Source of the DNA: a virus
Taxonomy: Duplodnaviria > Heunggongvirae > Uroviricota > Caudoviricetes
Length of the DNA stretch: 11,657 nucleotides
Reading direction: 5' to 3' (one strand)
IMG/VR virus record: IMGVR_UViG_2778261705_000010
In this document: piece by piece, positions 9,001-11,657 of the stretch
Layout: each line of letters starts with the position of its first letter
How positions within the stretch are numbered: position 1 is the first letter of the stretch
Program-made: the position numbers

Positions 9001-11657
9001 GTGGCTTCATCCGCAGGCGAGGGATCGGCTTTCATACGGGCATAGAGAATTTCTTTTGCGGTGTCCGTTCCCACTTCACACAGATACACGCCCCGCTGAT
9101 TGCGGGTTTTTGGCATGGTGATCACCGGCTTGCCATAGACAGATGCGCCTTTTACCGGCAGCACCCGGAAAACACCGTGTTTTTTTGATCTCTGATAAAC
9201 AATTTCACCATCGATCCCCCCGGTGTCCCAGCAGACACGGGAAATAGTCATTTCGGTGCCATCCGCATGGCGGTATTTTTTGTTGATCGCCGCATCCACA
9301 CGTAACAGCGTCTCTTCCTCATCAGGACGCCCCATAATGATGATTTTATCCACCAGAAAGGCTTCCTCTCCCGGAGCCCATCCCCAGACATACATCTCAA
9401 AACGGTTTCGCTGCGAGTCAATGCCCGCCGTCAGATAAACCACCCGGGCAGGCACCGCCGCCGTGTAACGCACCACCTTATCCATCAGTACCTGGTGATC
9501 GAGTTTTTCGCCCACGGCCTCTTCCCAGGTCTCGCCCAGCGTGGTGTTCACAAAGGTTTTCAGGCCGTTGGGATCTTTCAGTGCATCCAGCCAGTCATAG
9601 ACAATCTGTACCCAGGTGGTGAACGGACTGTACGCCGTCCAGATATGGAACATGATGGAGCGCGGCGGCGGAATTTCATCACCCCGGGCGCTGAAAAACG
9701 TCAGACCGTCACGGGTCCACATGCCCGTGTTTTCACAGATCCACCGCCCGTTGCTCTGGTCCAGTTCAGACTGATGGATCACGCAGCCATGATGTTCACA
9801 GAGGTAGAAAACACTTTCAGGGCTGTCCTTCTCCCATTTAAGCCCAAAAGGCGTGGACTCATCGCCAAATTTCAGATACTGCGCCTCCCCACAGTGCGGG
9901 CAGGGCACATAAAAACGCATAAAATGCGCCGACTCGTTAGCGGCTTTTTCGATCTGGCAGGTGCCTTTGATTTTAGGCGTCGAGCCGCGAATGGATTTTG
10001 GCCACACCGACCCCTCAATACGCTTATCCCCCAGCAGGGTTGGCGAGCCCTCTTTTTCGACATCCGGCTCGAACGAGGAAAGTTCGTCATAGCAGACCAC
10101 GTCAACGGATTTTTCACGGTAGTTTTTGGCGGCAGCGCCGCCCAGGCACCAGAAACCGACGCCCGATGAAAAGCGTTTCAGCGTGAGAGTATTGTCACGA
10201 TGTTTACGACCCAGCCATGGGGAAAGGTCTTTCAGGCATGGCACGTTCCGAATCGTCGCCTCCACGTGAGACTTCATAAAATCTTCAGCGGCAGAATCCG
10301 TGGGCTGAAAAAGCAGACTGTTTCGGGATTTATGCTCAATAAAATACCCGCCCCCCCCCCAGCAACATCTTTGTATAGCCAACACGGGCAGATTTAATCA
10401 GATTAACAGTGCGGATCTGATCATTCCCCATACTGTTCATGATGGCGATCTGGAATGGCAGCGTTTTCCATTCGCCCTCACCATATGAAGATTCTTTAGG
10501 CAGATAATAATTTTGATCAGCCCATTCAACTGGCGTCACCGGCAATGCCCTTATCAGGGGCTGTAATGCAGTTGTGACAGCGCTCATCATATTATTCAGT
10601 TGTTGCTCTGATATATTCATCAAGTAAATCCGGTAATTTATCCCCTGCCCGCGCACACTGATTTGCCCCCTTAGCAATAAGGGTTTTCAGATGGTCAAGA
10701 TGGCGCGGTGTTAAATCAGGAAACTGTCGCTGCATGGATAAAGGGATGGAATCAAGCGTACTGGATAACGCCATTGCCAGCTTACTGAGGGCAAAAATAC
10801 AGAACCCGGTGTCAATCAGTTTTCCTTTTGACACCTCATTTTTTAACTGCTGTGTAACAGCCTGTTCTGCTGTCAGTTCCCATCTGGCAATAAGCAATTT
10901 CTCCTCATAGTCGTCTTCGCTATCGCCATCAGGCACATCGTTTTTACTTCTCCTCAGATACGATATGTAAAAATCGCGCCAGGCATCCAGATCCAGTTGC
11001 CCTCGCTTATTCGATATCGGGGCACCCGGCAATTTCTGCAATCTGCGAAGCTGGCGATCGGTCAGACTTAAATGCCTGGCAACTTCAGTCTGCGTAGCCA
11101 CTCCTCACCTCGCAAAAACTCTCACCTCACAATCACAACAAAACCGGTCATGTCCGGTTTACATGTCTGTTTTTTGTTCATGTCCGGTTCACAGAAGACC
11201 TGTTTTTATATTTTTCATATAGTTAACTTGAAGAGAAACCGGACATGGATCCCGGAAAATTTTCATAAATAGCGAAAACCCGCGAGGTCGCCGCCCCGTA
11301 ACCTGTCGGATCGCCGGAAAGGACCCGCAAAATGATAATAATTATCATCTACATGTCACAACGTGCATCTACGCCATCAAACCACGTCAAATAATTAATT
11401 ATGACGCAGGTATCGTATTAATTGATCTGCATCAACTTAACGTAAAAACAACTTCAGACAATACAAATCAGCGACACTGAATACGGGGCAACCTCATGTC
11501 AACGAAGAACAGAACCCGCAGAACAACAACCAGTTACAGATGCTTTATTAAGGAAAAAAACAGCCAGCACTGACTTTCGGTGGAGAGGTGCTGGCTCAGA
11601 AGGATAGTTGGATTTCACATGATACTTATGCCTGGCGGTATATTTTCTGACAGACAG

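What the first reader, a model, noticed from the sequence alone, without database searches (positions are those of the whole stretch)
10592..11300. Lambda-type cosN joined to a non-lambda cosB repeat set and a non-lambda N-terminus in the small terminase
The cohesive end and the first ~33 bp of the left arm match lambda, but where lambda's R3 site would start the sequence changes to a different motif, CATGTCCGGTT, present three times (two direct, one inverted) around an AT-rich spacer. In parallel, the small terminase keeps the lambda-like C-terminal part (which contacts gpA) but has a different helix-turn-helix N-terminus, the part that reads cosB in lambda. A matched swap of DNA-binding domain and binding sites implies a packaging specificity distinct from lambda, as is established for the lambda / phage 21 pair.
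Basis: partly seen in the sequence, partly recalled or inferred. Interest (0 to 1): 0.55.

Follow-up and report, generated by a model that had tools for sequence, protein, structure and literature searches.

The report
Fourth lambda-type cos packaging specificity candidate
This prophage has lambda's DNA cutting site, but beside it sit different small-terminase binding repeats (core TCCGGTT) and a matching, different DNA-binding domain; the pair is in about a fifth of complete E. coli genomes and probably defines a packaging specificity nobody has characterised.

Summary
In phage orientation (bp 1 = window 11296), bp 1-45 are identical to lambda. CATGTCCGGTT then occurs exactly three times, and nowhere else in the window. 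The copies lie at bp 50-60, bp 108-118 (inverted) and bp 138-148 (inverted). These are the positions of lambda and phage 21 R3, R2 and roughly R1. An IHF-like site sits where lambda I1 sits.

The small terminase (TerS, 169 aa) matches Pfam Phage_Nu1 only from residue 49. Residues 1-55 model as a winged helix-turn-helix with no significant sequence similarity to lambda, 21 or N15.

Comparative data support a matched pair. Every MATQ-type TerS examined in enterobacteria has TCCGGTT-core sites at the same coordinates. Of 39 distinct upstream regions of viral-contig relatives, 37 have TTCCGGTT-type repeats. Terminases with the same C-terminal class but N15-like or lambda/21-like N-termini have other repeats there. 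Helix residue 20 covaries with one base of the site.

It is not the phage 21 specificity. Against a 93-95% phage 21-like backbone, the replaced cassette is cosB, all of terS and about 27 codons of terL.

This copy lies in a defective prophage with a frameshifted terL. Distinct specificity is inferred, not tested. I rate it a new variant of a known kind, of moderate interest.

The parts
11320..11326 (-). cosQ-like heptamer GGGTCCT (packaging termination subsite)
   Evidence: Located. GGGTCCTTTCC is conserved upstream of cosN in all enterobacterial loci compared. Its role as cosQ comes from the literature (PMC4669245) and was not tested here.
11285..11296 (-). cosN cohesive-end sequence GGGCGGCGACCT (bp 1-12 in phage coordinates; bp n = 11297-n)
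   Evidence: Identical to lambda and phage 21 bp 1-12. Phage 21 bp 1-12 is annotated as the cohesive end.
11252..11284 (-). cosN-to-cosB spacer, bp 13-45
   Evidence: 100% identical to lambda bp 13-45; bp 1-41 are 95% identical to phage 21.
11232..11248 (-). R3-equivalent TerS site. Core CATGTCCGGTT at 11237-11247 = bp 50-60; TCCGGTT = bp 54-60.
   Evidence: Exact repeat. Same position as lambda R3 (bp 50-65, PMC9026076) and the annotated phage 21 R3 at 50-65. TCCGGTT lies at bp 54-60 in the Salmonella, Citrobacter and Enterobacter relatives and at bp 55 in Klebsiella. Invariant in the gap-free variants among 78 IMG/VR copies.
11213..11225 (+). I1-equivalent IHF site candidate TTTCATATAGTTA (bp 72-84), with an A/T tract beside it
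   Evidence: 2 mismatches to WATCAANNNNTTR. Same place and orientation as lambda I1 (bp 74-86, also 2 mismatches) and the annotated phage 21 I1 (74-86). Relatives have 0-1 mismatch at bp 72-86.
11178..11193 (+). R2-equivalent site, inverted relative to R3. Core 11179-11189 = bp 108-118.
   Evidence: Exact inverted repeat of R3. Lambda R2 is at 109-124 and phage 21 R2 at 107-122. AACCGGA starts at bp 108 in five lineages and at bp 109 in Klebsiella.
11141..11163 (+). Third site, a palindromic composite. The perfect copy at 11149-11159 (bp 138-148) has R2 orientation. An overlapping 1-mismatch copy CATGACCGGTT at 11142-11152 (- strand, bp 145-155) has R3 orientation.
   Evidence: The inverted copy is conserved in Enterobacter (bp 138) and an inverted copy is present in Klebsiella (bp 151). 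The Salmonella and Citrobacter relatives lack a third site. The forward copy varies at bp 152-153 among population variants.
11162..11172 (+). Degenerate copy CATGTCTGTTT (2 mismatches), probably not a site
   Evidence: Not conserved in PhiR12 or other relatives.
10937..11101 (-). terS codons 1-55: MATQ-type winged helix-turn-helix DNA-binding domain. Helices 4-10 and 15-22 (recognition), wing about 23-37, helix 38-54.
   Evidence: AlphaFold2 pLDDT 86.5. Foldseek matches to RdfS excisionase, RacA, viral TerS DNA-binding domains, RppC and MerR family at probability 0.8-0.94, TM 0.6-0.69, all E > 0.1. No Pfam hit. hhalign to lambda/21/N15 N-termini gives probability 16%.
10592..10957 (-). terS codons 49-169: Nu1-family oligomerisation and TerL-binding part
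   Evidence: Pfam PF07471, 67.9 bits, model positions 62-163. 41% identical to lambda, 36% to phage 21, 39% to N15.
10538..10620 (-). First ~27 codons of terL (ATG at 10620), part of the exchanged cassette
   Evidence: No DNA similarity to phage 21 before window 10538, then 93% identity onward. The N-terminal 48 aa of TerL are 46% identical to phage 21 against 91% for the whole protein.
8691..10620 (-). terL, frameshifted in this copy at a G10 run (window 10351-10361)
   Evidence: tblastn of the PhiR12 TerL splits into two frames, and the alignment shows +1 nt in the G run. RefSeq marks the 99.9%-identical locus as 'frameshifted'.

Best explanation
Window 11141-11326 is the cos site of a lambdoid prophage whose head genes are phage 21-like. 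cosQ, cosN and the 33-bp spacer are the lambda/21 type. cosB is built from a different repeat with core TCCGGTT, here CATGTCCGGTT. The layout is R3 (bp 50-60), an IHF site (bp 72-84), an inverted R2 (bp 108-118) and a third inverted site (bp 138-148). terS starts at bp 196.

The proposed mechanism follows lambda and is inferred from it. The N-terminal winged helix-turn-helix of TerS (residues 1-55, recognition helix about 15-23, DRQLRRLQK) reads the TCCGGTT sites in the major groove. IHF bends the spacer so that a TerS dimer bridges R3 and R2. The C-terminal part of TerS holds TerL through TerL's own N-terminus and places it on cosN for nicking.

Because the domain and its sites differ from those of lambda, 21 and N15, the module most likely defines a separate packaging specificity. 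That specificity would be shared by the 1-4 copies per genome found in about 21% of complete E. coli genomes.

This particular copy has a broken terL. It could be packaged only in trans, by a resident phage of the same type.

Shown here: the sequence anatomy, the positional equivalence, the domain-site covariation and the mosaic boundaries. Inferred: binding, bending and the difference in specificity.
For: Anatomy: three exact copies occur only here. Their coordinates match lambda and the annotated phage 21 R3/I1/R2/R1 to within a few bp, and the terS start is at bp 196 against 191 and 189.

Covariation of domain class and site:
- MATQ-type TerS in Klebsiella (80% identical), E. coli (77%), Salmonella (70%), Citrobacter (62%) and Enterobacter (61%) have TCCGGTT at bp 54-60 or 55-61 and the inverted copy at bp 108 or 109. 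This holds despite diverged spacers and different cosN sequences.
- Distant MATQ-type TerS in Pseudomonas, Aeromonas, Azospirillum and metagenome-assembled genomes have TTCCGGTTCCGG-type tandem repeats at the R3 position.
- 37 of 39 dereplicated IMG/VR upstream regions carry such repeats within 40 nt of terS. About 0.005 per region is expected by chance.
- Controls with the same C-terminal class but another N-terminus carry other repeats at the same three positions. N15-like N-termini go with GGTGGTTGTTGT; lambda/21-like N-termini go with GATCCGTTCTTC / GATCCTTTCT.

Residue-base covariation: residue R20 goes with GTCCGG in 7 of 7 loci. Non-R20 loci have GTCCGG in 2 of 50 (Fisher 1.4e-7; about 3 independent lineages). 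Three N20 loci fetched afterwards had TTTCCGG, as predicted.

Fold: the N-terminal domain models confidently as a MerR/excisionase-type winged helix-turn-helix, like solved TerS DNA-binding domains.

Population variation: changes fall in the spacers and not in R3, R2 or the inverted third copy.

Mosaic boundaries against phage 21 lie at bp ~46 and bp 759.

The same module, 96% identical in DNA and 99.4% in TerS, is in the deposited phages PhiR12_1 to PhiR12_5, whose listed hosts are K-12 or E. coli C.

The lambda/21/N15 paradigm is taken from PMC4669245 and PMC9026076.
Against: - No binding, footprint, packaging or virion-end data exist for this module. Everything functional is inferred.
- Fold matches have probability about 0.9 but E > 0.1, because the domain is small.
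- The IHF match has 2 mismatches in an AT-rich stretch, where such matches are common. Only its conserved position supports it.
- The third site is inverted, unlike lambda/21 R1, and two lineages lack it, so its role is unclear.
- Different sites need not mean exclusive specificity: N15 terminase packages lambda DNA at about 50% efficiency (PMC4669245).
- The sites share TCATGTC with phage 21 R sites (TCATGTCGG), so some recognition by a 21-type TerS is not excluded.
- This copy is in a defective prophage with terL frameshifted and the capsid gene truncated.
Confidence: 0.8

Rival explanations
1. It is simply a phage 21-type cosB and TerS, with the same specificity as phage 21. The head genes are 21-like and the repeats resemble 21 R sites.
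For: The DNA is 93% identical to phage 21 from bp 759 onward, and TerL is 91% identical overall. Phage 21 R sites (TTTCATGTCGGGCCTT and similar) share TCATGTC..GG with TCATGTCCGGTT.
Against: There is no DNA similarity to phage 21 between bp ~46 and 758. TerS is 31% identical overall to 21 gp1 and 25% in the N-terminus; hhalign gives probability 16%. The part of the motif conserved across the MATQ class is TCCGGTT, which phage 21 lacks. The shared CATG varies within the class: CATT, CACT and GATG also occur.
Confidence: 0.04
2. The repeats are not terminase sites. They could be operators for another regulator, or RNA/DNA hairpins such as a terminator in front of terS, and they coincide with the R positions by chance.
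For: The third-site palindrome AAACCGGACATGACCGGTTT followed by a T run scores as terminator-like, and a weaker hairpin overlaps R3.
Against: The motif tracks the TerS N-terminal class across about 60 loci and several bacterial classes. It changes when only that domain changes. The hairpin stem is not conserved: bp 152-153 vary, and Enterobacter has CCGATT. R3 and R2 are 47 bp apart, not a local hairpin. No Rfam family matches.
Confidence: 0.04
3. The pair arose by gradual divergence from the lambda-type domain and R sites, not by a swap. The N-terminus is then a very diverged Nu1 DNA-binding domain and TCCGGTT a diverged R sequence. Specificity may overlap with lambda.
For: The fold and helix register are the same as lambda Nu1: residues 4-31 align with lambda 5-31, and R16 aligns with lambda R17. 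The Pseudomonas phage LPPA33 site CGTTTCCGGTTCCGG resembles lambda R3 CGTTTCCGTTCTTC. The cos layout is conserved as far as alpha-proteobacteria.
Against: Sharp mosaic boundaries separate the cassette from 93-95%-identical flanks. One C-terminal class is found with three N-terminal classes, and the MATQ domain is found with at least three C-terminal classes. That pattern is recombination. Deep common ancestry and recent exchange are compatible.
Confidence: 0.1
4. In this particular locus the cos/terS module is an inert relic of a decaying prophage and takes part in no packaging.
For: terL is frameshifted at a G10 run. The capsid gene is truncated and joined to a tail gene. An IS element and an inverted lysis cassette lie nearby.
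Against: terS and all cos subsites are intact and identical to those of many other copies. 1167 of 5426 genomes have the module, with 1-4 copies per genome. In O157 Sakai the terminase-defective Sp4 is still packaged, which was attributed to Sp14 having an identical cos and Nu1 (PMC2669165). This concerns the activity of this copy, not what the module is.
Confidence: 0.3

Closest known systems
Phage lambda cos (cosQ-cosN-cosB: R3-I1-R2-R1) with gpNu1
   Same: Identical 12-nt cohesive end and bp 13-45. A cosQ heptamer is present. A repeat sits at bp 50-60, an IHF-like site at about bp 72-84 and an inverted repeat at about bp 108-118. terS starts about 190 bp from the end. TerS has an N-terminal winged helix-turn-helix and a Nu1-family C-terminal part.
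   Different: The repeat is CATGTCCGGTT, not CGTTTCC(T/G)TTCT. The N-terminal 55 aa have no significant sequence similarity to Nu1 and are about 13 residues shorter. The C-terminal part is only 41% identical. The third site is inverted, whereas lambda R1 is direct.
Phage 21 cos and gp1 (the established second specificity)
   Same: Same cosN and same R3/I1/R2 coordinates. The rest of the head module is 93% identical in DNA, and TerL is 91% identical. The R sites share TCATGTC.
   Different: cosB, terS and the first ~27 codons of terL show no DNA similarity. TerS is 31% identical. The class-conserved core TCCGGTT is absent from phage 21.
Phage N15 / Monarch group (third documented specificity; simple or tripartite cosB)
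   Same: The short N-terminal domain has a length like N15's. Distant MATQ-type phages such as Aeromonas phiARM81ld and Pseudomonas LPPA33 have a simple cosB with sites only at the R3 position, as N15 does. Relatives with the same TerS C-terminal class carry N15-type domains and GGTTGTTGT repeats.
   Different: The domain sequence differs (11% identity in a global alignment) and so does the motif. This locus has the complex tripartite form.
Rpp-TerS redirection in E. coli phage-inducible chromosomal islands (PICIs)
   Same: This is another case where lambda-type cosQ/cosN is kept and the sequence at bp 48-65 is replaced to change what is packaged (PMC9026076). RppC (6hlk) is among the fold matches of the N-terminal domain.
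   Different: Here the new DNA-binding domain is part of TerS itself, and cosB keeps IHF and R2 sites. No separate Rpp-like protein is involved. There is no sequence similarity to Rpp.

Membership tests
Lambda-like cos site (Feiss definition: 12-base 5' cohesive ends like lambda's, cosQ, cosN, cosB) | [quoted passage not shown] | tested here: met
   GGGCGGCGACCT at window 11285-11296 is identical to lambda and phage 21. Actual nicking was not tested.
Lambda-like cos site | Conserved cosQ heptamer upstream of cosN | tested here: met
   GGGTCCT at window 11320-11326, conserved in all enterobacterial loci compared.
Complex cosB (R3-I1-R2-R1) | Repeat at about bp 50-65 (R3), at a fixed distance from cosN | tested here: met
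   CATGTCCGGTT at bp 50-60. The same offset is seen in six lineages.
Complex cosB (R3-I1-R2-R1) | IHF site between R3 and R2 | tested here: inconclusive
   TTTCATATAGTTA at bp 72-84 has 2 mismatches to the consensus in AT-rich DNA. Position and orientation match lambda and phage 21 I1, and relatives have 0-1 mismatch. IHF binding was not tested.
Complex cosB (R3-I1-R2-R1) | R2 inverted relative to R3 | tested here: met
   A perfect inverted copy lies at bp 108-118.
Complex cosB (R3-I1-R2-R1) | R1 in the same orientation as R3 | tested here: not met
   The perfect, conserved third copy (bp 138-148) is inverted. Only a 1-mismatch, variable copy (bp 145-155) is direct.
Nu1 small terminase (Pfam PF07471) | Match to the family model above the gathering score | tested here: met
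   67.9 bits against a cut-off of 30, but only residues 49-150 on model positions 62-163.
Nu1 small terminase (Pfam PF07471) | Nu1-type N-terminal DNA-binding domain (model positions 1-61) | tested here: not met
   No Pfam match to the N-terminus. hhalign gives probability 16%. No PDB sequence hit. The predicted fold is nevertheless the same winged helix-turn-helix class.
Phage 21 packaging specificity | gp1-type recognition helix and CATGTCGG-type R sites | tested here: not met
   The N-terminus is 25% identical in a global alignment. The motif differs in its conserved core.
Lambda packaging specificity | Nu1 recognition helix and CGTTTCC(T/G)TTCT R sites | tested here: not met
Distinct packaging specificity (functional definition) | Self DNA is packaged far better than lambda, 21 or N15 DNA, and the reverse | not testable with these tools
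   This needs helper-packaging or cosmid-transduction assays.

The most novel reading that the evidence does not exclude
The MATQ-type TerS domain and TCCGGTT sites may form a fourth, ancient and very widespread packaging-specificity class of lambda-like cos phages, from alpha-proteobacteria to E. coli O157. It would have its own sub-specificities set by a single contact: Arg20 with G in GTCCGG, against Asn/Asp20 with T in TTCCGG. In polylysogens such as O157:H7, shared and non-shared classes would then decide which defective prophages, virulence cargo and satellites can be packaged by which helper.
Probability: 0.55. Interest if true: 0.55.

Novelty: new variant of a known kind. Interest (0 to 1): 0.45.

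Why it matters
Packaging specificity decides which DNA a cos phage can put into its heads. It therefore also decides which defective prophages, islands and cosmids a helper can mobilise.

Only three lambda-like specificities (lambda, 21, N15) have been documented. The authors who documented them noted that few examples have been studied and that those three do not probe "extreme" domain swaps (PMC4669245).

This module is in about 21% of complete E. coli genomes, often in several copies. It is present in the O157:H7 prophage pool, where trans-packaging of terminase-defective prophages has been observed (PMC2669165). A defined site and domain, plus a single-residue/single-base covariation, give a directly testable recognition rule. 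They may also offer an orthogonal cos/terminase pair for cosmid or phage engineering.

The concept itself is not new. It extends the lambda/21 paradigm.

Tried and rejected
- Identity with phage 21: rejected.
- PDB sequence search with TerS: no meaningful hit. Not even the lambda Nu1 domain was found.
- Pfam on the isolated N-terminus of the window protein: nothing above noise. HTH_17 appears below threshold only for a Pseudomonas relative.
- Fold search with the full-length model: dominated by helical-bundle noise at pTM 0.34. It was repeated with the domain alone.
- Literature search for the motif strings: only unrelated primer sequences.
- Searches for a prior description of this cosB or TerS class, or of the PhiR12 phages: nothing in the held library. 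Asadulghani et al. 2009 aligned the Sp4/Sp14 cos and Nu1 with lambda in their Fig. S8 but did not analyse cosB.
- First viral-contig scan: returned only 99%-identical copies. These were used for population variation. A second scan seeded from a distant member gave the needed diversity.
- Terminator or hairpin reading of the third site: considered and rejected because the stem is not conserved.
- Rfam: no match.
- A possible link between Rpp proteins and the MATQ domain: only a generic fold match; not pursued.
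Full report
**Where the window comes from**

The window is 99.89% identical over all 11,657 nt to a lambdoid prophage of E. coli strain 350. The 1,066-nt cos-terS segment used as the query is 100% identical in several O157:H7 genomes. Its morphogenesis genes lie on the - strand, so I also use phage coordinates. Base 1 of the left cohesive end is window 11296, and bp n is window 11297-n.

**Checking the observation**

- The cohesive end GGGCGGCGACCT (window 11285-11296) and the next 33 bp are identical to lambda. 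Similarity stops at bp 46.
- CATGTCCGGTT occurs exactly three times, at 11237-11247 (-), 11179-11189 (+) and 11149-11159 (+). There is no other exact copy in the window. None of 200 shuffles reaches the observed number of near matches.
- A 1-mismatch copy at 11142-11152 (-) overlaps the third copy and forms a palindrome. A 2-mismatch copy at 11162-11172 is not conserved in relatives.
- The small terminase ORF (10592-11101, -, GTG start, 169 aa) matches Pfam Phage_Nu1 only over residues 49-150.
The one exception is the C-terminal part, which belongs to the Nu1 family but is only 41% identical to lambda.

**Anatomy**

In phage coordinates the three copies lie at bp 50-60 (forward), 108-118 (inverted) and 138-148 (inverted).

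| Subsite | This window (bp) | Lambda (bp) | Phage 21, annotated (bp) |
|---|---|---|---|
| R3 | 50-60 | 50-65 | 50-65 |
| I1 (IHF) | 72-84 | 74-86 | 74-86 |
| R2 (inverted) | 108-118 | about 109-124 | 107-122 |
| R1 / third site | 138-148 (inverted) | about 151-166 | 150-166 |
| terS start | 196 | 191 | 189 |

Sources: PMC9026076.

- TTTCATATAGTTA at bp 72-84 (window 11213-11225) matches the IHF consensus with 2 mismatches. It has the same position and orientation as lambda I1 (also 2 mismatches) and the annotated phage 21 I1. Relatives have 0-1 mismatch there.
- A cosQ-like GGGTCCT lies at window 11320-11326.
- The layout therefore follows lambda/21 at R3, I1 and R2; the third site lies near the R1 position but is inverted, and the repeat sequence is different.

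**The protein**

- TerS is 34% identical to lambda Nu1, 31% to phage 21 gp1 and 30% to N15 gp1. By comparison, lambda and phage 21 are 52% identical to each other.
- Residues 1-55 have no Pfam hit and no PDB sequence hit. Profile comparison with lambda/21/N15 N-termini gives only 16% probability, although the helix-turn-helix aligns in the same register.
- AlphaFold2 models residues 1-55 with pLDDT 86.5 as helix 4-10, helix 15-22, a wing, then helix 38-54.
- Foldseek finds RdfS excisionase, RacA, three viral small-terminase DNA-binding domains, RppC and MerR-family regulators. Probabilities are 0.8-0.94 and TM-scores 0.6-0.69, but all E-values exceed 0.1 because the domain is small.
- The domain thus appears to belong to the same fold class as known TerS DNA-binding domains, but to a different sequence family.

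**Does the domain go with the sites?**

This is the key test, and it can be done by comparison.

- Domain shuffling. An alignment of homologues shows that the C-terminal class of this TerS is joined to three N-terminal classes. These are the MATQxEVAxHL class (this window), an N15/Monarch-like class and a lambda/21-like class. Conversely, the MATQ domain is joined to quite different C-termini in Pseudomonas and Aeromonas phages.
- Enterobacterial MATQ-type loci. Klebsiella, a second E. coli type, Salmonella, Citrobacter and Enterobacter are 61-80% identical in TerS. They have TCCGGTT at bp 54-60 or 55-61 and its inverted copy at bp 108 or 109. This holds although the spacers have diverged and cosN differs.
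- Controls. Loci with the same C-terminal class but an N15-like domain carry GGTGGTTGTTGT at the R3, R2 (inverted) and R1 positions. The locus with a lambda/21-like domain carries GATCCGTTCTTC and GATCCTTTCT.
- Distant MATQ-type TerS. Pseudomonas LPPA33, Aeromonas phiARM81ld, Azospirillum and several metagenome-assembled genomes have tandem TTCCGGTTCCGG-type repeats at the R3 position.
- Wider sample. Among 39 dereplicated IMG/VR upstream regions, 37 have such a repeat within 40 nt of terS. About 0.005 per region is expected by chance.
- Single-contact covariation. Residue 20 of the predicted recognition helix is Arg in every locus whose site reads GTCCGG (7 of 7). It is Asn, Asp, Ser, Thr or Lys where the site reads TTCCGG (2 of 50 exceptions; Fisher 1.4e-7). 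The Arg loci represent about three lineages, so the events are fewer than the counts. Three Asn20 loci fetched after I formulated the rule had CATTTCCGGTTCCGG, as predicted.
- Population variation. Among the gap-free variants of 78 near-identical copies, substitutions fall in the spacers and not in R3, R2 or the inverted third copy.

**What was exchanged**

- Against phage 21 the window is 95% identical over bp 1-41. It has no detectable similarity from about bp 46 to 758, and is 93% identical from bp 759 (window 10538) through the head genes.
- terL starts at window 10620, so the cassette comprises cosB, all of terS and the first ~27 codons of terL.
- Accordingly the intact TerL of PhiR12 is 91% identical to phage 21 gp2 overall, but only 46% identical in its first 48 residues.
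- That N-terminal stretch is the region known, from lambda/21 hybrid genetics, to bind the small subunit. This point rests on my own knowledge and was not checked here.

**Most likely mechanism (inferred by analogy with lambda)**

The winged helix-turn-helix reads the TCCGGTT sites. IHF bends the spacer so that a TerS dimer bridges R3 and R2. The TerS C-terminus positions its matched TerL on the unchanged cosN.

The module probably confers a packaging specificity distinct from lambda, 21 and N15. Those are the only three documented so far (PMC4669245).

**Caveats**

- There are no functional data.
- N15 terminase packages lambda DNA despite different sites, so cross-packaging is possible.
- The sites share TCATGTC with phage 21 R sites, which I cannot explain.
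- The third site is inverted, and two lineages lack it.

**State of this copy**

- terL is frameshifted at a G10 run (window 10351-10361, and RefSeq annotation).
- The capsid gene is truncated, so this prophage cannot package itself.
- The same module is in the deposited phages PhiR12_1 to PhiR12_5.
- It is present in 1167 of 5426 complete E. coli genomes, with 1-4 copies each.
- In O157 Sakai, a terminase-defective prophage (Sp4) is packaged, and this was attributed to a resident prophage (Sp14) with an identical cos and Nu1 (PMC2669165). I did not check whether the Sp4/Sp14 module is the type described here.

**Novelty**

I found no description of this cosB or TerS class in the literature I could search. 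The principle is the established lambda/21 one. I therefore rate it a new variant of a known kind. It is of moderate interest, mainly because the module is so common and because it offers a testable recognition rule.

Noticed in passing
window 10351-10361 (within terL, 8691-10620, - strand): A run of 10 G (phage strand) replaces GGGAGTCGCC of the intact PhiR12 gene and adds one base, which frameshifts the large terminase. RefSeq marks the 99.9%-identical locus as 'frameshifted'. I cannot tell whether this is a real mutation, a slippage-prone tract or a homopolymer sequencing error.
   Followed up: partly
window 3987-4975 (- strand): The major capsid gene is cut after about 88 codons (4712-4975) and runs straight into a tail-protein gene (3987-4727). 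The lambda-order genes between E and V are missing, so the prophage is defective. This rests on the annotation of the 99.9%-identical locus NZ_CP018243 and on the ORF list.
   Followed up: partly
window 11532-11657; L093 1-11000: Homology to lambda's right end stops at about window 11531. In the matching genome the lysis cassette (holin, lysozyme, Rz-like) beyond that point is inverted relative to the head genes, and an IS1203 lies nearby. This indicates a rearrangement next to cos.
   Followed up: no
TerS residue 20 (window 11042-11044) and the G of CATGTCCGG in each site: Arg20 goes with GTCCGG and Asn/Asp/Ser/Thr/Lys20 with TTCCGG across about 57 loci (7/7 against 2/50). Three loci examined afterwards confirmed the rule. 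This looks like a single amino acid-base contact that sets sub-specificity.
   Followed up: yes
L002 (lambda) bp 40-47: Lambda itself carries TTCCGGTT, the MATQ-class core, in the conserved spacer between cosN and R3. That is 13 bp closer to cosN than the R3 position. The window has TTCCGGGA there. The significance is unknown.
   Followed up: no
L003 (phage 21) R sites at 50-65, 107-122, 150-166 versus window 11141-11248: Phage 21 R sites (TTTCATGTCGG[G/A]CCTT) and the window sites (TCATGTCCGGTT) share TCATGTC and differ by one inserted C, although the two TerS domains are unrelated in sequence. This is unexplained. It could be chance, or a trace of a 21-type ancestor of this cosB.
   Followed up: partly
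L005 bp 135-155 (Pseudomonas phage LPPA33) versus lambda R3: CGTTTCCGGTTCCGG in LPPA33 resembles lambda R3 CGTTTCCGTTCTTC. Together with the conserved GCTATTTATG box and the R3 offset in alpha- and gamma-proteobacterial loci, this hints that all these R sites descend from a TTCCG-type ancestor.
   Followed up: partly
window 11104-11115 and 11121-11132: There is a direct duplication of a 12-mer (phage strand TTGCGAGGTGAG / TTGTGAGGTGAG) containing the Shine-Dalgarno-like GAGGTGA, just upstream of the GTG start of terS.
   Followed up: no
window 3312-4646 (+ strand): A 444-aa ATG ORF runs antisense to the tail and capsid-remnant genes. It is probably spurious, but I did not examine it.
   Followed up: no
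A1 alignment, TerS residues about 55-66: The junction between the DNA-binding domain and the rest of TerS (acidic linker, then EEKLLIAR) is where three N-terminal classes meet one C-terminal class. It therefore looks like a recombination hotspot inside the gene.
   Followed up: partly
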